Source of the DNA: a phage
Length of the DNA: 64,000 nucleotides
Sequence record: PZ452596.1
Reading direction: 5' to 3' (one strand)
Shown here: in pieces, positions 23,299 to 57,622 of the stretch
How the letters are laid out: every line of letters starts with the position of its first letter
Numbering within the stretch: position 1 is the stretch's first letter
Translations under genes and position numbers: made by a program
The notes under the pieces: generated by a model
The model's database searches: none
What the model was told of the DNA's origin: nothing
What the model saw: only the letters and a program-made list of their open reading frames with translations

Positions 23299-23841
23299 TC
23301 ACTTTGAAATCATAGTTGGAATGACAGAATCAAGATAAGTCTTTAGCGCAATAGCTTCGTCTTTGGTAAATGTGACAATATGCGCTCGAGAATCATCAAT
23401 TTGGCGAACAAGTACGACATCGCCATCTTCATAAGAAGTCTTGACATCCAAAGTCGTAGTATAATTTGCAGCTACTGGATTAATAATGTTAGCGCCGCGG
23501 TCTTTAGCCCATTGAAGTTTAGCCTTTTCGGATGTTTCGACTGTTTCAGATTCCAAGAATTCTTTCACCTTGACAACGAATGTTGCCCAATTGTTGATAG
23601 AAAGACACATAAATTCAGTTTCAATATTACCGCCGTAAAGGCCACGATAAAAACGAACTTGGAGGTCGTCTGTAATATTAGTTACACCGGTAACTCCTGA
23701 GGGAGCATAAGATAAAATCGCAGCCAGTTCCATAGGAAGAATAGTAATACTATCGTCTTCCTGCGTCAGAACGTATACATTACCACGTTTTTCGATAACC
23801 AGGTCACCGAACAAATCAGTTGTTTCAATTACAGCTTTCAT
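23299..23841 (-). CDS. hypothetical protein (paralog of 22771 ORF)
   Basis: Start at ATG 23841 (MKAVIETT...; track starts at TTG); C-terminal KDEAIALKTYLDSVIPTM. Confidence 0.55.
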   Translation of the reverse strand: MKAVIETTDLFGDLVIEKRGNVYVLTQEDDSITILPMELAAILSYAPSGVTGVTNITDDLQVRFYRGLYGGNIETEFMCLSINNWATFVVKVKEFLESETVETSEKAKLQWAKDRGANIINPVAANYTTTLDVKTSYEDGDVVLVRQIDDSRAHIVTFTKDEAIALKTYLDSVIPTMISK

Positions 23842-23842
23842 A

Positions 23843-24028
23843 TTATTTACCAATTAAAGTTTCAATATAAGAATCAAGATTTACTTTAGCTTCTTCCATA
23901 AGAGTTTTGTATTTAATCTTGTTAGCATGTCCGGAGAAAGCTGATTCATCAATAACTGTTGCTGTATGAACAGCTTTGCTATATGTTTCAATTAATTCTC
24001 TTAATTTAAAAGCCTGCTCACTTGTCAT
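23843..24028 (-). CDS. small helical protein, family member
   Basis: About 61 aa from ATG (MTSEQAFKLRELIETY...); N-terminal EQ..K(L/I) pattern shared by about 6 small ORFs. Confidence 0.5.
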   Translation of the reverse strand: MTSEQAFKLRELIETYSKAVHTATVIDESAFSGHANKIKYKTLMEEAKVNLDSYIETLIGK

Positions 24029-24160
24029 CACATACTCCTCTGAATCATATCAATAATGTTGTTCACCAGATTATAAGTAAACATTGGGTAATTATATTGA
24101 ATCATCACATACACAACAAACAAAACTTTCATTCTCTTCTCCTTGGCAGCTGACAAGATT

Positions 24161-24190
24161 ACTATACCATAACCTTGCCAACTTGTAAAC
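24161..24190 (-). promoter_or_regulatory. early promoter
   Basis: Minus strand GTTTAC, 18 nt, TGGTATAGT. Confidence 0.5.
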
Positions 24191-24192
24191 CA

Positions 24193-24366
24193 TTAAATGA
24201 TGTTTTCAATAAAATTCTGAAGCTTTGTGTGAGCATCAACCATGATTTTCAATTCTTCTTTAGCGAAAGCTGTACCTCTTTCCCGAGAAGAACACTCATA
24301 GTCAGAAACTGCATTAGCATATTCTTCAATTAGTTTCATTAAAAACATCTGCTTTTCAGTTTTCAT
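24193..24366 (-). CDS. small helical protein, family member
   Basis: 57-aa ORF MKTEKQMFLMKLIEEYANAV... behind AGGTGG RBS; below track cutoff. Confidence 0.4.
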   Translation of the reverse strand: MKTEKQMFLMKLIEEYANAVSDYECSSRERGTAFAKEELKIMVDAHTKLQNFIENII

Positions 24367-24550
24367 TATTCCACCTAATCATTTCAAGATATTGAACTAA
24401 CTTAGCTTTAGATTTATCCAAATCCTTTTTAGCTGCTTCTATACCGTCGTATGAATATCCTTCACAATGCTCAACTGCTAATTGATATGAATCTATTTCA
24501 ACATCACGTGCTAATTTAATGATTTTTTCAAACTGTTCACATGTTAGCAT
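24356..24550 (-). CDS. small helical protein, family member
   Basis: 64 aa MLTCEQFEKIIKLARDVE... Confidence 0.5.
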   Translation of the reverse strand: MLTCEQFEKIIKLARDVEIDSYQLAVEHCEGYSYDGIEAAKKDLDKSKAKLVQYLEMIRWNNEN

Positions 24551-24552
24551 AC

Positions 24553-24756
24553 TTAAACTCTCGTATTATGATCGATAATTTCATCAAGAAACATATCTAA
24601 CGCTTCTATAGCATTATCAACTTTAGCTTCAAGTTCATCAATACCTTTATTTGCAATGCCTGACGAAAACCAAGCAAAGTCACTAAGTTCCTCGTCTGCT
24701 TTACGAATTAAAGCTACTAATTCCTTAATTTTATCCGCTTGTTCGATACTAATCAT
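24553..24756 (-). CDS. small helical protein, family member
   Basis: Start at ATG 24756 ([16 protein letters not shown]...) behind GGTGG RBS. Confidence 0.5.
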   Translation of the reverse strand: MISIEQADKIKELVALIRKADEELSDFAWFSSGIANKGIDELEAKVDNAIEALDMFLDEIIDHNTRV

Positions 24757-24944
24757 TATTCCACCACATATGAAAGAGAGAATATTGCACACGCCATGTG
24801 AGTTGCAACTTCATCACACATATTATAACGTTTCTTAAGAAGTTCTACAAGTTCTTCACTAGTAACTTCATCCATGTCGACGAAAAAATCACCATTAATG
24901 ATGACGTAAATATTTCCTTCTTGATTGAGTGCTTCAATTTTCAT
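24756..24944 (-). CDS. small acidic hypothetical protein
   Basis: Start at ATG 24944 behind GAGGAG RBS, downstream of promoter 24973-25002. Confidence 0.45.
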
Positions 24945-24972
24945 GATGTTCTCCTCTTTATCCGATAGTTGT

Positions 24973-25002
24973 ATAGTATCACAGCTCAAACGGAAAGTAA
25001 AC
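24973..25002 (-). promoter_or_regulatory. early promoter
   Basis: Minus strand GTTTAC, 18 nt, TGTGATACTAT. Confidence 0.55.
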
Positions 25003-25018
25003 CGGTAAAATGAAAAAA

Positions 25019-25034
25019 GTCTCCCGAAGGAGAC
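25019..25034 (-). terminator. hairpin GTCTCCCGAAGGAGAC
   Basis: 6-bp stem with CGAA loop, 3' of the 25040 gene. Confidence 0.4.
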
Positions 25035-25039
25035 TAATG

Positions 25040-25426
25040 TTATTCGAGGGAAAGAAGATACTTACTCTGGTAAAACATCCCAGTAATATCATCTATCGTG
25101 CTTTGAATGGCTGGAGGCATTTCTTTATAAATGCTGTTAGATTGGTCTAGTATGCGATCAATCATTTTAATTGTGTCGGTAGGAAGTTTACTGGCATCTG
25201 GAATTGAAGGTGTGTATTTTCTACCAGAATACCCCAAATATTGCTCACCAAATTTATCAATCAAATCTGGTAACTCGGAGAAAATAAAATCGTATGCTTT
25301 GTGTCTAGCATAACTTTTAGTTTCAAAATGTGCAGAATGAAAATAAGCTTGTGCAGCCATTAATAAACCTAAGTATTCATCTGCCTTTGAAGGTTTTCCA
25401 CTTTGTGAAAAGTCGCTGAATTTCAT
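25040..25426 (-). CDS. hypothetical protein downstream of rI (rI.1-like by position)
   Basis: 128-aa ORF, stop/start overlap with rI. Confidence 0.6.
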
Positions 25427-25716
25427 TCAGTCTCCAATTTAATGTTCATAATTCTAGCGTATGATTGTGCCATCTCCGCGCCTCGTTCTATACATTCAAA
25501 ATCAGAAGAGCACGGGTCATTTTTATAGGTCGTTCTCATAAAACTATAGAATTGTTCAGACGATTCTACGCTTTTATTTTCAAAAAGCATATAAACGTGC
25601 CTAATACCAGATTCCATAAATTTATCAAAATGAGGATCGACATTCGCTTCAATTGGTGGAGATAAAGCAAATGACAATCCTAGCATGGCAAATAGTGCCG
25701 TTGCTTTTAAGGCCAT
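25423..25716 (-). CDS. rI: RI lysis-inhibition regulator (antiholin)
   Basis: 97 aa, MALKATALFAMLGLSF...NVDPHFDKFMESGIRHVYMLFENKS matches T4 RI as recalled. Confidence 0.92.
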   Translation of the reverse strand: MALKATALFAMLGLSFALSPPIEANVDPHFDKFMESGIRHVYMLFENKSVESSEQFYSFMRTTYKNDPCSSDFECIERGAEMAQSYARIMNIKLETE

Positions 25717-25728
25717 AAAGGCCTCCTA

Positions 25729-25941
25729 TCATTTTTGTCCTGTATTTACTTTATGCCGATGCACGGCCTTAACTTTATCAAGGTATTTTTCAAAATTTCG
25801 CAATCTAGTATAGTCTGCCGGAGATTGGTTGAGTGATACTTCTCGACGCAAAGCTGAAATGATATTTCCAACTTCCCTACGAATTTCATCTAATTGAAGA
25901 ACAGTAAGATTGCGAAGTTGCTTTTCAGTTAATTGTAGCAT
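25729..25941 (-). CDS. hypothetical protein upstream of rI (rI.-1-like by position)
   Basis: 70-aa ORF. Confidence 0.55.
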
Positions 25942-25966
25942 ATATACCCCTTTAGTTAGATAAACC

Positions 25967-25974
25967 TATTTATA
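25967..25974 (-). promoter_or_regulatory. late promoter TATAAATA
   Basis: Exact TATAAATA on minus strand about 26 nt upstream of the 25941 start. Confidence 0.45.
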
Positions 25975-25983
25975 ACTTTTGCA

Positions 25984-26565
25984 CTAACCGAGCTTTTTAG
26001 TTAATTCATTCCAATGTTTTCTACACAAAGAAACATAAATTTCATCGCCAATACAGATTTGATTACCCTCTTTAACTGGTGTTCCATCTTCCATTAATCG
26101 AGCTGTCATAATCGCTTTTTTACCACAGTGACAAACTGCTTTTAGTTCAATAAGTTTATCTGCAATCGCCAAAAGTTCTTTAGAACCTTCAAATAATTTT
26201 CCAGCGAAATCAGTCCTTAATCCATAAGCCATAACAGGAACATTATATGTATCAACAATTCGGCTCAATTGATGCACTTGTTCAGTTTTTAAAAACTGAG
26301 CTTCATCTACAAATACACAATGAATATCTTTTTGTGCTTCAGCCCATTTATAGAACTCGAAAATATCCATATCATCTGTAATAATATTCGCTTCCTGCTT
26401 AATTCCAATGCGAGAAACGACTTCACAGACAGAATCGCGAGTATCAATAGCAGGCTTAAGAACTAATACGCTCATTCCACGTTCTTTATAATTATGTGCA
26501 GCAGTCAAAAGAGAAGCAGATTTTCCAGCATTCATTGCTGCATAAGTAAAAATTAAACTCGCCAT
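25984..26565 (-). CDS. tk: thymidine kinase
   Basis: 193 aa; P-loop AAMNAGKSASLL; C-terminal Zn-ribbon cysteines typical of TK. Confidence 0.92.
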   Translation of the reverse strand: MASLIFTYAAMNAGKSASLLTAAHNYKERGMSVLVLKPAIDTRDSVCEVVSRIGIKQEANIITDDMDIFEFYKWAEAQKDIHCVFVDEAQFLKTEQVHQLSRIVDTYNVPVMAYGLRTDFAGKLFEGSKELLAIADKLIELKAVCHCGKKAIMTARLMEDGTPVKEGNQICIGDEIYVSLCRKHWNELTKKLG

Positions 26566-26566
26566 C

Positions 26567-26755
26567 TTAGTCCTTAGTTAAATTTTCTAAATATGTTTCT
26601 AAATCATTTTCAGCTTTATCGATAGATTTTACTAATTCGTAATATGTTTCGGCATCTCCATAATCAGAAGATAATTCAAAAGACAAATCCTTTTCTAAAC
26701 TAATAATTTCACCAACTAAAAATAATATTTCGTTCTTTTGTTCGCGAGTAATCAT
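26567..26755 (-). CDS. small helical protein, family member
   Basis: 62 aa MITREQKNEILFLVGEI... Confidence 0.5.
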   Translation of the reverse strand: MITREQKNEILFLVGEIISLEKDLSFELSSDYGDAETYYELVKSIDKAENDLETYLENLTKD

Positions 26756-26937
26756 AAGGAATTTATATAATTAATAAGTTCTTGTTCTTTATTATCGAAT
26801 TCTTTAGAAAGTTCTTCGTACTCGTTTGCATTAAAAGGACCGCATTCATCACAAACTTTTTCCAATTCACTGTTTTTATCCATAACTTCGTGGATAAGAG
26901 AAAAGAGTTTGTCTTTTTGTTCTTTGCTTAGGCTCAT
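26752..26937 (-). CDS. small helical protein, family member
   Basis: 61 aa MSLSKEQKDKLFSLIHEV... Confidence 0.5.
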   Translation of the reverse strand: MSLSKEQKDKLFSLIHEVMDKNSELEKVCDECGPFNANEYEELSKEFDNKEQELINYINSL

Positions 26938-27107
26938 ATATTAATTTCCAGAAGTTTTAAAATAATTCGCTTTTGCTTAAATATTTCAATAGTTAAATGA
27001 TCAGTATCTTTTTGACCAATTCCAATGGCAAAACCTTTATTAGCAGCGAGTTCAATTAAATTATCAAGTTCACGTAACACTTCGTACTGTAACTCATAAC
27101 TATTCAT
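26934..27107 (-). CDS. small hypothetical protein
   Basis: 57-aa ORF MNSYELQYEVLREL..., ATGA overlaps on both sides; below track cutoff. Confidence 0.4.
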   Translation of the reverse strand: MNSYELQYEVLRELDNLIELAANKGFAIGIGQKDTDHLTIEIFKQKRIILKLLEINI

Positions 27108-27310
27108 TTCGGTTTACCTTCTTTAACGAAATCTGGATAAGGATAAAATCCCGAATAAAATCCTTCACCTTTATGATTGATGCATCCTTTATTAGAACAA
27201 TAGCACCAATAATCGAAATCACAAGCCATTTCATCGTTGCATAAAGCAAAAACAACCGGCCACTTACACTTTTCGCAGTGGGCATTTTTAAGAATACTAG
27301 TTTGGCTCAT
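27104..27310 (-). CDS. small Cys-rich protein (possible zinc-binding)
   Basis: Start taken at the ATG overlapping upstream stop (ATGA); sequence has CEKC...C...C..C..C. Confidence 0.45.
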   Translation of the reverse strand: MSQTSILKNAHCEKCKWPVVFALCNDEMACDFDYWCYCSNKGCINHKGEGFYSGFYPYPDFVKEGKPK

Positions 27311-27519
27311 AACCATGTAACCTTTAAGCAATATTCTTCTACATGTTGTTTACGACCTTTCTTATCAATAAAGGTATATTCAACGAATGTTCCAATGTAG
27401 TCTTTATCTACATCATGTGGACTATTAATTGGACATTTAGTACGGCAAATGCGTTCCCATTGACGAATAATTACTGCCTTATTCTTTGGGTCATACGGAT
27501 GTGGATAATGTATATTCAT
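27307..27519 (-). CDS. small hypothetical protein
   Basis: Start at ATG 27519 overlapping upstream stop (ATGA): MNIHYPHPYD... Confidence 0.45.
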   Translation of the reverse strand: MNIHYPHPYDPKNKAVIIRQWERICRTKCPINSPHDVDKDYIGTFVEYTFIDKKGRKQHVEEYCLKVTWL

Positions 27520-27983
27520 AATAACGGTTCCCAATCAACAATCACAATTTCTAATTTAGAAGAATATGTATCTAAAATCCCCTCAATAATATCCCAGTTC
27601 CCTTTACCTATGCCTGCACCAATCCTAGGCATATAGATTGTGGGTTTAATCAGTTTATTTTCACCAAACTCATTTAATTCTAACATACAATTCATTAAAG
27701 CGGAATACTCAAAATTTGGCCCTGGTTGAAATTGAGTATAAAGGTTGAAGCAATACGCTTTATGAGTCCTAAAGTATTTTTCATAGACTGAGTAAGAACC
27801 GAGTTTAGTTACATCACCCCATTCAGTCTGTAATTTATCAGCTTCCAAAATTTTAGGGAAAGCTTTGGTTAATTGACCCGCTACGCCTGAACCCATAGTA
27901 TGAAAACAATTGCATCCATGCGCAATATTTTTACCTTCAGCGAAAAGGGCGACAATATCGCCCTTGATATATTTTACAATCAT
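27516..27983 (-). CDS. macro-domain-like protein (putative ADP-ribose binding/processing)
   Basis: 155 aa; GDIVAL...IAHGCNCFHTMGSGVAG and PRIGAGIGKG parallel the macro-domain motifs (VNAAN...GGGV; ISTG.YG). Confidence 0.5.
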   Translation of the reverse strand: MIVKYIKGDIVALFAEGKNIAHGCNCFHTMGSGVAGQLTKAFPKILEADKLQTEWGDVTKLGSYSVYEKYFRTHKAYCFNLYTQFQPGPNFEYSALMNCMLELNEFGENKLIKPTIYMPRIGAGIGKGNWDIIEGILDTYSSKLEIVIVDWEPLL

Positions 27984-53611: not shown

Positions 53612-55416
53612 TGAAACAAAATATTAATATCGGTAATGTTGTTGATGATGGTACCGGTGACTACCTGCGTAAAGGTGGTATAAAAATAAATGAAAACTTT
53701 GATGAACTTTATTATGAACTTGGTGATGGAGATGTTCCATATTCAGCCGGTGCCTGGAAAACTTATAATGCTTCATCTGGACAAACACTAACGGCAGAAT
53801 GGGGAAAATCATATGCCATTAATACTTCGTCTGGAAGAGTAACTCTACAACTTCCTAAAGGAACTGTTAATGATTACAACAAGGTAATTAGAGCTAGAGA
53901 CGTATTCGCTACATGGAACATCAATCCAGTTACTTTAGTAGCTGCTTCTGGAGATACAATTAAAGGGTCGTCATCGTCAGTTGAAATTAATATTCAATTT
54001 AGTGATTTAGAACTCGTTTATTGCGCTCCAGGACGCTGGGAGTATGTCAAAAATAAGCAAATTGATAAAATTATCAGTTCAGACATTAGTAATGTAGCTC
54101 GTAAAGAATTTTTAGTCGAAGTTCAAGGGCAAACAGACTTTTTAGATGTTTTTAATGGAACTAGTTATAATGTCAATAACATCAGAGTAAAACATCGTGG
54201 TAACGAATTGTATTACGGCGATGTATTTAGCGAAAACAGTGACTTTGGCTCTCCTGGAGAAAATGAAGGCGAATTAGTTCCTCTTGATGGATTTAACATT
54301 CGATTAAGACAGCCTTGTAATATTGGTGACACTGTTCAAATTGAAACATTTATGGATGGTGTATCACAATGGAGAAGTTCATATACAAGACGCCAAATAA
54401 AAGTACTGGATTCAAAACTAACATCAAAGACTTCTTTAGAAGGAAGCATTTATGTTACTGATTTATCAGCGATGAAATCAATTCCATTTTCTGCATTTGG
54501 ATTAATTCCTGGTGAACCCATTAATCCTAACTCTCTTGAGGTTCGTTTTAATGGAATTTTACAGCAGCAGGCTGGAACAGCTGGATATCCTCTGTTTTTG
54601 TGTGAAGGCGCTAATTCAGATACGCAAGAAGGATGTATATCTCTTGGTGGCGAATGGAAAGAATCAAACACCGATTATTCTATAGAATATGAAGACGGAA
54701 AACCTATCAGTCTTTTATTTGATAGAAAATTTGAATCCGGTGACATTATCGTTATAACATGGTTCAATAATGATTTAGGAACTCTTTTAGAAAAAGATGA
54801 CATCATTGAATTGACTGATGACCGTTATGTTAGTAAAGGATCATCTACTGAAGTTACTGGTGATGTGGCCTTAACAGATTTTGATAAAATCGGTTGGCCA
54901 AATGTTGAAAAAGTTGATTCTTATACTAGAACGTATAATTCAATATCATCTATTTTCGACAGCATTTATCCTGTTGGTTCAATTTATGAAAATGCTATAA
55001 ACCCAAATAATCCGGTGACTTATATGGGATTTGGTTCATGGAAATTATTTGGTAAAGGGCAGGTTTTAGTAGGATGGAATGATGATGTTACAGATCCAAA
55101 CTTTGCATTAAACAATAATGATTTAGATTCTAGCGGAAATCCTTCACATACCGCCGGTGGAACAGTTGGTACAACATCAGTAACGCTTGAAAACGCAAAT
55201 CTTCCTGCGACTAAAACTGATGAAAGAGTTTTAATTGAAGACGAAAATGGATCAGTTATTATTGGAGGATGTCAATATGACCCAGACGAAACTGGTCCTA
55301 TATATACAAAATATCGTGAAGACTACGCAACAACAAACTCTTCACATACTCCTCCTACTAATATTAGTAATATTCAACCGTCTATTACTGTATACCGTTG
55401 GATAAGGATTGCATAA
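53611..55416 (+). CDS. 10: gp10 baseplate wedge protein
   Basis: 601 aa; size and order. Confidence 0.9.
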
Positions 55417-56075
55417 TGAGTTTACTTAATAATAAAGCGGGAGTTATTTCCCGCTTAGCAGATTTTCTTGGTTTTAGAACTAAGAAAAATGATATTTCGG
55501 TTATGAATAATCAGCCGGTAGGCGCTGTAACAATTTCACAAATAGCAAAAGGTTTTTATGACCCAAATGTAGAATCTGCTATCAATGATGTTAGAAATAT
55601 GGCAGAGCAACAGGTTGGAGCTGTATTAATTAATATAAGTGGCGTATCTCCTACCGGAGTGCAACAAACAGACTATTGGTCATTTGAAGGAACTGTTACT
55701 GATACTTCAGCCAAACCAGGTGACCCAGTTATTGTTAACATGTTTGGTATTCCGGTTAAAGCTACTAACGGAATGACTTCAATTGAATTTACCAGTGCCG
55801 TTAGAATAGCTCTACAGGAAATGGTTGCAAAATTTATTGCAATTGATTCATTTGAAGACCATCCTACCATAGGAAATAAAATACAAGTTAAGTATTTAGA
55901 TAACCAAGAACATATCTTAGAGCAATACTCTGATAAAGGAATTACTTTCAAACAAGAAATAATTTCTCCTTCTAAACCCGGATACGGAACTTGGCAATTA
56001 TTAGGTGCGCAAACTGTTACGCTAGATAGTCACACACAACCTACGGTATTTTATTATTTTGAGAGAATAGCATGA
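55416..56075 (+). CDS. 11: gp11 baseplate wedge / short tail fibre attachment
   Basis: 219 aa from ATG 55416 ([20 protein letters not shown]...), TAATG overlap with gene 10; track ORF starts at upstream TTG. Confidence 0.95.
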
Positions 56076-57622
56076 GTAACAATACATATCAGCACGTATC
56101 AAATGAATCAAAATATGTTAAATTCGATCCTACTGGATCGAATTTTCCTGACACTGTCACGACAGTGCAGTCTGCATTATCAAAAATAAGTAATATCGGC
56201 GTAAATGGTATTCCTGATGCAACTATGGAAGTTAAAGGAATAGCAATGATTGCGTCAGAGCAAGAGGTTTTAGATGGAACTAATAATTCTAAAATCGTTA
56301 CACCAGCTACATTAGCAACAAGATTATTGTATCCAAATGCTACTGAAACTAAGTATGGTTTAACGCGCTATTCAACAAATGAAGAAACATTAGAAGGCTC
56401 AGATAATAATTCATCAATAACGCCGCAAAAACTGAAATACCATACTGACGATGTGTTCCAAAATAGATATTCGTCTGAGTCATCAAACGGGGTTATTAAA
56501 ATATCATCTACACCTGCAGCTTTAGCTGGAGTTGATGATACTACGGCAATGACTCCACTGAAAACACAAAAACTTGCAATAAAATTAATTTCACAAATAG
56601 CTCCTTCCGAAGATACTGCATCAGAATCTGTGAGAGGTGTAGTTCAATTATCTACTGTTGCGCAAACACGTCAAGGAACTCTCCGCGAAGGATATGCAAT
56701 TTCTCCGTATACATTTATGAATTCTGTTGCAACACAAGAATATAAGGGCGTTATACGTTTAGGAACACAATCGGAAATTAACAGTAATTTAGGAGATGTT
56801 GCAGTAACAGGTGAAACACTAAATGGTCGAGGAGCTACCGGTTCTATGCGTGGGGTAGTAAAATTAACGACGCAAGCCGGTATTGCCCCTGAAGGTGATA
56901 GCTCTGGAGCATTAGCATGGAACGCAGATGTAATTAATACTCGTGGTGGACAAACTATTAATGGTTCTTTAAATTTAGACCATCTTACAGCAAACGGAAT
57001 TTGGTCGCGCGGCGGAATGTGGAAAAATGGCGATCAACCTGTTGCCACTGAAAGATATGCGTCCGAAAGAGTTCCAGTTGGAACTATTATGATGTTTGCG
57101 GGTGATTCAGCACCTCCGGGTTGGATTATGTGCCACGGTGGAACAGTGTCAGGAGATCAATATCCTGATTATAGAAACACAGTTGGAACAAGATTTGGTG
57201 GTGATTGGAATAACCCTGGCATTCCTGATATGAGAGGTCTTTTTGTTAGAGGAGCTGGCACGGGCGGTCATATTTTAAATCAACGTGGACAAGATGGTTA
57301 TGGGAAGGATAGACTTGGTGTAGGATGTGACGGAATGCATGTTGGTGGCGTTCAAGCACAACAAATGTCATACCATAAACACGCTGGTGGTTGGGGGGAA
57401 TATAACAGAAGTGAAGGTCCATTTGGCGCGTCCGTTTATCAAGGATATCTTGGAACTAGAAAATATTCCGACTGGGATAATGCTTCATACTTCACTAATG
57501 ATGGATTTGAATTGGGTGGACCGAGAGATGCCCTTGGTACACTTAATCGTGAAGGATTAATTGGTTATGAAACTAGACCATGGAATATATCATTAAACTA
57601 TATTATTAAAATTCATTACTAA
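56072..57622 (+). CDS. 12: gp12 short tail fibre
   Basis: 516 aa; ATGA overlap with gene 11; position and composition. Confidence 0.9.

What the first reader, a model, noticed from the sequence alone, without database searches (positions are those of the whole stretch)
23843..27107. Family of at least six small helical proteins in two clusters flanking rI-tk
ORFs 23843-24028, 24193-24366, 24356-24550, 24553-24756, 26567-26755 and 26752-26937 are each about 57-67 aa and start with a similar M-x-(S/T)-x-EQ-x-x-K-(L/I) pattern followed by a helical acidic body. Several are translationally coupled and use the same AGGTGGAATA-type RBS. Such small paralog arrays are typical of host-takeover or anti-defence inhibitors.
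Basis: seen in the sequence. Interest (0 to 1): 0.45.

Follow-up and report, generated by a model that had tools for sequence, protein, structure and literature searches.

The report
Six small helical-hairpin paralogs (DUF7438)

Summary
The window is phage RB27, a T4 relative (100% identity). The six minus-strand ORFs are RB27_102, mobD.2a, mobD.3, mobD.4, tk.1 and tk.2. All six match Pfam DUF7438 (PF24219) end to end at 56-69 bits, against a cut-off of 25. A leave-one-out HMM ranks each omitted member first among about 700 other window ORFs (E 4e-8 to 5e-3).

AlphaFold gives a confident two-helix antiparallel hairpin (pLDDT 90). The fold is generic, so it says nothing about function.

The family is small: 49 clusters among 1.84 billion representatives. 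It is confined to phages of enterobacteria. Copy number is 1 to 6 per phage and dN/dS is 0.1-0.4.

The T4 orthologues have early RNA and detectable protein. They are non-essential. They were not reported as hits in screens against five defence systems.

Only two of the six share the GGTGGAATAATG ribosome-binding site. Tight gene spacing is general in this region.

The anti-defence or host-takeover reading is plausible but untested. Verdict: a real family, already catalogued, function unknown.

The parts
23843..24028 (-). RB27_102, 61 aa, DUF7438 member. RefSeq labels it 'helicase loader', which the evidence does not support.
   Evidence: Pfam PF24219 at 58.2 bits. Matches phrog_4859, with a cross-hit to phrog_653. 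Leave-one-out E 2.1e-5. A similar copy occurs in Mosigvirus WFbE185, and the gene is absent from T4 and T2.
24193..24366 (-). mobD.2a, 57 aa, DUF7438 member
   Evidence: PF24219 at 56.1 bits. Matches phrog_2758. Leave-one-out E 1.5e-4. Preceded by an exact GGTGGAATAATG. Overlaps the end of mobD.3 by 11 nt. Split by a frameshift in the T4 reference sequence.
24356..24550 (-). mobD.3, 64 aa, DUF7438 member
   Evidence: PF24219 at 61 bits. Matches phrog_653. Leave-one-out E 5.1e-3. The T4 orthologue has early RNA and early protein and is non-essential.
24553..24756 (-). mobD.4, 67 aa, DUF7438 member. Not annotated in RB27 RefSeq.
   Evidence: PF24219 at 57.5 bits. Matches phrog_653. Leave-one-out E 1.2e-5. 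The annotation gap is visible. Preceded by an exact GGTGGAATAATG. dN/dS against orthologues is 0.12-0.44. The loop differs in length from T4 and T2, which have 60 aa.
26567..26755 (-). tk.1, 62 aa, DUF7438 member, immediately upstream of tk
   Evidence: PF24219 at 56.2 bits. Matches phrog_653. Leave-one-out E 7.3e-7. ATGA overlap with tk.2 and a 1-nt gap to tk. The T4 orthologue has early RNA and middle protein.
26752..26937 (-). tk.2, 61 aa, DUF7438 member. RefSeq annotates only a 43-aa internal start.
   Evidence: PF24219 at 69.4 bits, with the match starting at residue 3. Leave-one-out E 3.8e-8. AlphaFold2 gives a hairpin with pLDDT 90. Present in all seven Tevenvirinae loci compared.
24974..25002 (-). 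Probable early promoter of the mobD.5-mobD.4-mobD.3-mobD.2a transcription unit (GTTTAC, 17 nt, GATACT)
   Evidence: Read directly from the sequence. A mobD.5 promoter is reported for T4 (PMC1702504). The consensus scan did not list it, so this is an inference.
25018..25035 (-). Terminator-like hairpin between rI.-1 and the mobD.5 unit
   Evidence: Seven-pair stem followed by a T run on the minus strand.
24161..24189 (-). Promoter-like site (TTTACA, 17 nt, TATAGT, with TG) upstream of mobD.2 and RB27_102
   Evidence: Best-scoring sigma-70-like site in the region, 10 of 12 matches. A consensus match only.

Best explanation
Shown: the six ORFs are diverged paralogs of one small phage protein family, Pfam DUF7438 (which unites PHROGs 653, 2758 and 4859). 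In T4 nomenclature they are RB27_102, mobD.2a, mobD.3, mobD.4, tk.1 and tk.2. Each is a single-domain protein of 57-67 aa, mostly acidic. The tk.2 model folds as one antiparallel two-helix hairpin. In T4 the orthologues are transcribed early, and four are detected as proteins. They are individually dispensable on laboratory E. coli.

Inferred: the conserved positions are almost all core hydrophobics in an a/d/e heptad pattern, together with an N-terminal T-x-E-Q helix cap and a loop glycine. The surface and the loop are free to vary. From this, the proteins most likely pair into four-helix bundles, as homodimers or as heterodimers of neighbouring paralogs. They would then act stoichiometrically as protein binders on host factors, or possibly phage factors, early in infection. 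The paralogs would differ in target through their divergent surfaces. Whether the targets are defence proteins or housekeeping machinery is not resolved.
For: Family membership: Pfam scores of 56-69 bits against a cut-off of 25, leave-one-out HMM, PHROG cross-hits.

Fold: AlphaFold2 mean pLDDT 90, helices 5-30 and 37-60.

Conservation pattern:
- Hydrophobic columns at tk.2 positions 3, 11, 14, 15, 18, 25, 47, 54, 57, 58 and 61.
- Ala-rich columns at 21 and 50.
- High entropy of about 3 bits at surface positions.
- The lowest-entropy columns lie at the end of the hairpin that carries both termini.

Charge: median pI of 41 family members is 4.5.

Real coding genes under purifying selection: dN/dS 0.07-0.44.

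Expression in T4: mobD.3 and mobD.4 have early RNA and early protein; tk.1 and tk.2 have early RNA and middle protein (PMC9697503 supplement).

Dispensability in T4:
- HIDEN-SEQ classes all five orthologues as 'Non-essential'.
- CRISPRi-ART classes them as 'Not Fit'.
- The nrdC.11-mobD.3 block can be deleted.

Accessory behaviour:
- Two to six copies per phage in the tk/rI region of the seven Tevenvirinae compared.
- Single copies in a Kagunavirus and a Kuravirus.
- Only 49 clusters among 1.84 billion representatives.

A natural 119-aa protein with two tandem DUF7438 domains (P0142) fits a dimer as the working unit.
Against: There is no direct evidence of oligomerisation or of any binding partner. 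The single-sequence model of the tandem protein was low confidence (pLDDT 69).

No phenotype is known. The T4 orthologues show no fitness effect singly. They were not reported as hits against RexAB, RnlAB, CBASS, DarTG1, DarTG2 or in minimal medium.

Purifying selection without an obvious arms-race signature is also compatible with a housekeeping accessory role.
Confidence: 0.45

Rival explanations
1. Dedicated anti-defence inhibitors. Each paralog would neutralise a different host immune protein by direct binding, in the manner of small acidic anti-CRISPR or anti-restriction proteins.
For: Small and mostly acidic. Early expression. Non-essential on a laboratory host. Variable copy number, and two divergent tk.2 alleles exchanged between genera. 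The neighbourhood holds proven or reported counter-defence genes: tk.4 = AdfM, anti-DarTG2, and vs.4 = Acb2-type cyclic-nucleotide sponge (my own knowledge, not tested here).
Against: In the T4 transposon screens only the known or expected single genes were reported as hits for RexAB, RnlAB, CBASS, DarTG1 and DarTG2. None was a family member. dN/dS of 0.1-0.4 gives no sign of diversifying selection at gene level. No searchable paper links the family, its Pfam accession, its PHROGs or its gene names to a defence system.
Confidence: 0.2
2. Accessory partners of phage enzymes rather than host binders. Examples would be small subunits or assembly factors for P-loop kinases or for the nucleotide-metabolism and replication complexes.
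For: tk.2 sits directly upstream of tk or tk.1 in all seven Tevenvirinae loci compared. tk.1 and tk are 1 nt apart. The weak relative pseT.1 lies just upstream of polynucleotide kinase pseT. A metagenomic member abuts an AAA_33 kinase gene. Single copies in other phages lie in replication and nucleotide-metabolism modules: beside a primase/helicase, near a dNMP kinase and an exonuclease, and between a PolA fragment and an SNF2 helicase.
Against: The four mobD-cluster members are not next to any enzyme gene. Small early ORFs of any kind accumulate in these modules, so adjacency is weak evidence. There are only three kinase adjacencies and no statistics. tk itself is non-essential.
Confidence: 0.12
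3. Rop-like nucleic-acid-binding four-helix bundles that regulate RNA-RNA or RNA-protein interactions of early transcripts.
Confidence: 0.04
4. The similarity is chance or low-complexity helical bias, and some of the ORFs are not genes.
For: Pairwise E-values among most pairs are not significant. RefSeq omits mobD.4 and shortens tk.2.
Against: Pfam scores are more than twice the cut-off for all six. Leave-one-out ranks are always first among non-training ORFs. dN/dS is 0.07-0.44. Four T4 orthologues are detected as proteins.
Confidence: 0.01

Closest known systems
Pfam DUF7438 (PF24219), also PHROG 653, 2758 and 4859; T4 genes tk.1, tk.2, mobD.3, mobD.4 and mobD.2a
   Same: These are the same proteins. 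The six RB27 ORFs are members or orthologues: 56-69 bits on the Pfam model, and 93-100% identical to the T4 and T2 proteins where orthologues exist. The CRISPRi-ART supplement already files T4 tk.1, tk.2, mobD.3 and mobD.4 under phrog_653.
   Different: RB27 has a sixth copy, RB27_102, that T4 and T2 lack. Its mobD.2a is intact and its mobD.4 has a longer loop. The family has no assigned function.
Rop (ColE1 repressor of primer), a 63-aa helical hairpin that dimerises into a four-helix bundle
   Different: No sequence relationship (no Pfam hit, 12-14% identity). The family is acidic rather than RNA-binding in character. The dimer state was not tested. The family is phage-borne and multi-copy.
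Small early phage inhibitors of host proteins, such as T4 AsiA, T4 Arn, T7 Ocr and anti-CRISPR proteins (from established knowledge)
   Same: Small, often acidic, early-expressed and dispensable on laboratory hosts. They act by stoichiometric binding.
   Different: No sequence or specific fold similarity was found. No target is known. T4 orthologues were not reported as hits in five defence-system screens.
T4 RIII (82-aa cytoplasmic antiholin cofactor) and rI.1, which are neighbouring small helical lysis-inhibition proteins
   Same: Small helical T4-type proteins. The clusters flank rI.
   Different: hhalign probabilities against the family profile are 0.1% for RIII and 0.6% for rI.1. They are unrelated.

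Membership tests
Pfam DUF7438 (PF24219) | Whole-protein HMM score at or above the curated gathering cut-off of 25 bits | tested here: met
   The scores are 58.2, 56.1, 61.0, 57.5, 56.2 and 69.4 bits. Each match covers model positions 1-57 of 57.
Pfam DUF7438 (PF24219) | Relatedness that does not depend on a model possibly trained on these sequences | tested here: met
   In leave-one-out HMMs the omitted member always ranks 6th of 703 ORFs, directly behind the five training members. E-values run from 3.8e-8 to 5.1e-3, and the best non-member scores E >= 0.015.
Pfam DUF7438 (PF24219) | Single-domain protein of about 55-70 aa with the motif M-(I/L)-T-x-E-Q ... G ... L-x-x-(Y/F)-(I/L)-x-x-(L/I) | tested here: met
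   The lengths are 57-67 aa. Column conservation across 41 members is shown.
Pfam DUF7438 (PF24219) | Predicted two-helix antiparallel hairpin | tested here: met
   The AlphaFold2 model of tk.2 built on a 17-sequence alignment has pLDDT 90.1 and helices 5-30 and 37-60. Only tk.2 was modelled.
PHROG 653 | Best PHROG hit is phrog_653 | tested here: inconclusive
   Met for mobD.3, mobD.4, tk.1 and tk.2 (E 1e-22 to 1e-24). RB27_102 hits phrog_4859 best, and mobD.2a hits phrog_2758 best. Both have weaker cross-hits to phrog_653, at 3.7e-6 and 4.3e-3.
Helicase loader (T4 gp59 type), the RefSeq and PHROG label of RB27_102 | Homology to a helicase-loading protein | tested here: not met
   The only significant Pfam hit is DUF7438, and there is no NCBIfam hit. 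The genuine gp59 gene is RB27_237, with a 654-nt coding sequence.
Molybdopterin-guanine dinucleotide biosynthesis protein MobD, the NCBI label of mobD.4 orthologues | Homology to a molybdenum-cofactor biosynthesis protein | tested here: not met
   No such hit in Pfam or NCBIfam. The name appears to come from the T4 gene symbol mobD.4, where 'mob' refers to a mobile endonuclease.
Rop family | Sequence match to the Rop profile | tested here: not met
   No Rop hit at E <= 1 in Pfam. No PDB sequence hit. Only a generic fold resemblance.
Rop family | Homodimeric four-helix bundle | not testable with these tools
   No multimer prediction was available. The natural tandem protein P0142 modelled poorly (pLDDT 69).
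Phage anti-defence proteins (a functional class) | Loss of the gene sensitises the phage to a defined defence system, or the protein binds or inactivates a defence component | not testable with these tools
   Literature only. T4 orthologues were not among the reported hits for RexAB, RnlAB, CBASS, DarTG1 or DarTG2. Redundancy among paralogs and other defence systems remain untested.

The most novel reading that the evidence does not exclude
The DUF7438 hairpins would be a modular, diversifying set of decoy or inhibitor proteins. A conserved end carrying both termini mediates pairing, possibly between products of adjacent, translationally coupled paralogs. The variable loop-proximal half recognises different host immune or stress proteins. 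Redundancy or combinatorial pairing would then explain why no single-gene phenotype has appeared in genome-wide T4 screens.
Probability: 0.15. Interest if true: 0.6.

Novelty: already known. Interest (0 to 1): 0.25.

Why it matters
T4-type phages are the best-studied large lytic phages, yet roughly half of their genes have no known function. A family present in up to six copies per genome, expressed early and conserved under purifying selection, is a reasonable candidate for the unexplained part of host takeover or counter-defence.

Knowing that the six genes are one family matters for experimental design. Single knock-outs may be uninformative if the copies are redundant or work in pairs.

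The check also corrects database errors:
- mobD.4 is missing from the RB27 RefSeq annotation.
- tk.2 is annotated in a truncated form.
- Two product names, 'helicase loader' and 'molybdopterin-guanine dinucleotide biosynthesis protein MobD', are misleading.

As a discovery it is modest, because the family is already in Pfam and PHROGs.

Tried and rejected
- **PDB sequence search** with the family profile: nothing below E 0.04, and the hits were coiled-coil noise.
- **Modelling the natural tandem protein P0142** to test for a four-helix bundle: low confidence (pLDDT 69), so it was not used.
- **tk.2/tk.1 chimeras** (P0034, P0090) looked like recombination between paralogs. The current UFV-AREG1 record carries two separate genes and no phage record carries the chimera, so this is probably an old assembly artefact.
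- **The search for related loci** with the broad alignment failed because no stretch was conserved enough.
- **tblastn** of two distant members found nothing in annotated phages.
- **Other small neighbours as hidden members:** 26934-27107, rI.1, mobD.5 and RIII are not related.
- **NCBIfam:** no family.
- **Literature searches** for DUF7438, PF24219, the PHROG numbers and the gene names found no functional study. One general search on T4 early toxic genes gave nothing relevant.
- **Shared RBS as a family hallmark:** rejected, because only two of the six have it.
Full report
**Identity of the window.** The stretch 23600-27300 is 100% identical to Enterobacteria phage RB27 (Tequatrovirus), record coordinates 53922-57622. 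In T4 nomenclature the region reads on the minus strand as follows:
- regB, vs.1, vs, tk.4, tk.3, and two RB27-specific ORFs
- tk.2, tk.1, tk, rI.1, rI, rI.-1
- a terminator
- mobD.5, mobD.4, mobD.3, mobD.2a, mobD.2, RB27_102, mobD.1 ... nrdC.11

The six ORFs of the finding are therefore:

| Window coordinates | Gene |
|---|---|
| 23843-24028 | RB27_102 |
| 24193-24366 | mobD.2a |
| 24356-24550 | mobD.3 |
| 24553-24756 | mobD.4 |
| 26567-26755 | tk.1 |
| 26752-26937 | tk.2 |

- All six match one Pfam model, DUF7438 (PF24219), over its full 57 positions at 56-69 bits. The curated cut-off is 25.
- That model may have been trained on T4-type sequences, so I ran a leave-one-out test. An HMM of five members always ranked the omitted sixth directly behind its training set among 703 stop-to-stop ORFs of the window. 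E-values ran from 3.8e-8 to 5.1e-3, and the best unrelated ORF scored E >= 0.015.
- Pairwise similarity is low, at 18-32% identity. Only tk.1/tk.2 is individually significant. These are old paralogs.
- PHROGs splits them into three groups (653, 2758, 4859) with mutual cross-hits. Pfam unites them.
- The ORF at 26934-27107, inside the finding's range, is unrelated. So are rI.1, mobD.5 and RIII.
- A scan of the whole RB27 genome with a 41-sequence profile found no further clear member.
- pseT.1, outside the window, is a weak candidate: E 7e-5, hhalign probability 72%, no Pfam hit.

**Sub-claims of the finding.**
- 'Helical' is confirmed. The AlphaFold2 model of tk.2 has pLDDT 90.1 and helices 5-30 and 37-60.
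- 'Acidic' holds for four members (pI 4.15-4.84). RB27_102 (6.06) and mobD.2a (5.27) are only mildly acidic. The family median is 4.5.
- The 'AGGTGGAATA-type RBS' occurs exactly twice, as GGTGGAATAATG, before mobD.2a and mobD.4. The other four have different or weak Shine-Dalgarno sequences.
- All six start within -11 to +2 nt of the preceding stop, but so do most genes in this block. The coupling is a property of the region.

**Are they real genes?**
- Pairwise dN/dS among orthologues in RB27, T4, T2, ECML-134, VR7, SP18 and WFbE185 is 0.07-0.44 wherever dS can be measured.
- In T4, mobD.3 and mobD.4 are classed as early RNA and early protein. tk.1 and tk.2 are classed as early RNA and middle protein. 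mobD.2a has early RNA but no protein class (PMC9697503 supplement).
- RefSeq for RB27 leaves mobD.4 unannotated and starts tk.2 at an internal methionine, giving 43 aa. The Pfam match from residue 3 of the long form and the T4 and T2 annotations show the 61-aa form is right.

**Anatomy of the family (41 sequences).**
- The low-entropy columns are the N-terminal M-(I/L)-T-x-E-Q, a loop glycine, and hydrophobic positions 11, 14, 15, 18, 25, 47, 54, 57, 58 and 61 in tk.2 numbering. Columns 21 and 50 are Ala-rich.
- These positions are in register across the antiparallel hairpin and follow an a/d/e heptad pattern.
- The best-conserved columns cluster at the end of the hairpin that carries both termini. 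The loop-proximal half is variable and carries indels. For example, mobD.4 is 67 aa in RB27 and 60 aa in T4 and T2.
- Surface positions have about 3 bits of entropy.
The wider-than-needed hydrophobic stripe points to pairing into a four-helix bundle.
- A natural 119-aa protein with two tandem DUF7438 domains exists (P0142). Its single-sequence model was too poor to use.

**Distribution.**
- The word-indexed search returned 116 clusters. All named hits come from T4-like phages or from 'bacterial' records of phage size.
- The exhaustive profile search of 1.84 billion representatives found only 49 proteins at E <= 0.001. Nearly all are about 60 aa.
- tblastn with tk.2 hits 749 phage records, mostly from phages of Escherichia, Shigella, Yersinia, Salmonella and Citrobacter.
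- Single copies, confirmed by Pfam, occur in Salmonella Kagunavirus St162 next to the primase/helicase gene. Another occurs in Escherichia Kuravirus SU10, in a block with dNMP kinase, exonuclease and HNH genes.
- Metagenomic members sit in arrays of small co-directional ORFs next to a PolA fragment, an SNF2 helicase and an AAA_33 kinase.
- Copy number in the tk/rI region:

| Phage | DUF7438 copies |
|---|---|
| RB27 | 6 |
| T2 | 5 |
| T4 | 4, plus a frameshifted mobD.2a |
| ECML-134 | 4 |
| VR7 | 3 |
| WFbE185 | 3 |
| SP18 | 2 |

- tk.2 is the one member present in all seven Tevenvirinae loci, always just upstream of tk or tk.1.
- tk.2 is dimorphic. 169 records carry an allele at least 80% identical to the RB27 copy, and 580 carry one below 60%.
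- The ECML-134 allele is closer to Gaprivervirus (dN 0.13) than to RB27 or T4 (dN 0.34). It comes without tk.1.

**Function: what is known.**
- No paper in the searchable library mentions DUF7438, PF24219, the PHROG numbers or a function for these genes.
- Genome-wide T4 data are uniformly negative for single genes. All five orthologues are 'Non-essential' in HIDEN-SEQ and 'Not Fit' in CRISPRi-ART. The block nrdC.11-mobD.3 is deletable.
- In HIDEN-SEQ challenges with RexAB, RnlAB, CBASS, DarTG1, DarTG2 and minimal medium, the reported hits were rIIA/B, dmd, acb1, adfN, tk.4 and vs. None is a family member.
- The neighbour tk.4 (window 27516-27983) is AdfM, an anti-DarTG2 macrodomain. From my own knowledge, vs.4 is an Acb2-type sponge. 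The neighbourhood therefore does contain counter-defence genes.

**Structure comparison.**
- Foldseek against the PDB gave no hit at E <= 0.001. The top hits were FrmR/CsoR, Rop and designed bundles.
- The viral library returned only uncharacterised phage proteins, the top ones probably family members.
- The PDB sequence profile search found nothing.
- The fold carries no functional information beyond 'helical hairpin, likely to oligomerise'.

**Best explanation and rivals.**
- Settled, at about 0.97: six diverged paralogs of a catalogued family of early, dispensable, helical-hairpin proteins.
- Mechanism, inferred, at about 0.45: they pair into four-helix bundles and act as stoichiometric binders of host (or possibly phage) proteins, with specificity set by the variable surfaces.
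- Nested within this, a dedicated anti-defence role has about 0.2. The context supports it, but five negative screens and the lack of diversifying selection count against it.
- A role as partners of phage enzymes has about 0.12. It rests on three adjacencies to P-loop kinases (tk, pseT and a metagenomic AAA_33 gene) and on placement in replication modules.
- Rop-like RNA binding has about 0.04, because the acidity argues against it.
- Chance similarity is refuted.

**Novelty.** The family is in Pfam and PHROGs. The T4 genes have been annotated since the original tk-region sequence (record X04567, seen). A published supplement already lists four of them under one PHROG. The finding is correct but already known, and what remains open is the function.

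Noticed in passing
window 24553-24756 (-) and 26752-26937 (-): RB27 RefSeq (NC_025448) does not annotate mobD.4 at all. It starts tk.2 at an internal Met, giving 43 aa (26752-26883). The full-length ORFs match DUF7438 end to end and agree with the T4 and T2 annotations.
   Followed up: yes
window 23843-24028 (-); mobD.4 orthologues: Two product names are misleading. 'Helicase loader' for RB27_102 and phrog_4859 has no support, and the true gp59 is RB27_237. 'Molybdopterin-guanine dinucleotide biosynthesis protein MobD' for mobD.4 orthologues seems to derive from the gene symbol. Neither has Pfam or NCBIfam support.
   Followed up: yes
window 27516-27983 (-): tk.4 is a macro-domain protein. A 2025 preprint shows the T4 orthologue (AdfM) is required against the DarTG2 defence system, so a proven counter-defence gene lies 0.6 kb from tk.2.
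   Followed up: partly
L007 2282-2512 (-), which is RB27 132081-132311; outside the window: pseT.1 (76 aa) begins M-I-S-W-H-Q-F-E-H-L-K-E-L-I and ends L-H-D-Y-I-Q-S-L. It scores E 7e-5 against the family HMM and hhalign probability 72%, but has no Pfam hit. It may be a seventh, long-looped relative.
   Followed up: partly
window 25984-26937; L007 1081-2512; L016 2277-3622: DUF7438-type genes lie directly upstream of P-loop kinase genes three times: tk.2/tk.1 before tk, pseT.1 before pseT, and a metagenomic member before an AAA_33 kinase. This may be coincidence.
   Followed up: partly
window 26752-26937; L009 5998-6183: tk.2 exists as two deeply divergent alleles within Tequatrovirus. 169 records are at least 80% identical to the RB27 copy and 580 are below 60%. 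The second allele is closer to Gaprivervirus copies and, in ECML-134, comes without tk.1. This indicates exchange between genera.
   Followed up: partly
L002 4997-5178 (T4 reference): mobD.2a is split by a frameshift in the T4 reference genome, into a 38-aa N-terminal ORF and a C-terminal fragment in another frame. It is a full 174-nt gene in the T4 stock annotated in the HIDEN-SEQ preprint, and also in RB27, T2 and ECML-134.
   Followed up: partly
proteins P0034 and P0090: tk.2/tk.1 chimeric proteins are in the protein database. One is attributed to phage UFV-AREG1, but the current version of that record has two separate genes. The chimera is likely an assembly collapse between paralogs.
   Followed up: yes
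proteins P0094 and P0110: These are fusions of the mobD.3 N-terminus with the nrdC.11 C-terminus. One is labelled as a T4 strain. They match the spontaneous nrdC.11-mobD.3 deletion reported for genome-reduced T4.
   Followed up: no
window 25018-25035: A perfect 7-bp GC-rich hairpin (AGTCTCC TTCG GGAGACT) is flagged as terminator-like on both strands. On the minus strand it is followed by a T run, so it could terminate the rI operon. It is followed by a T4-early-type promoter-like sequence (GTTTAC, 17 nt, GATACT) at 25002-24974.
   Followed up: partly
window 24028-24132 (-): mobD.2 encodes a 34-aa, very hydrophobic peptide (MKVLFVVYVMIQYNYPMF...) wedged between two family members. It is possibly a small membrane peptide.
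   Followed up: no
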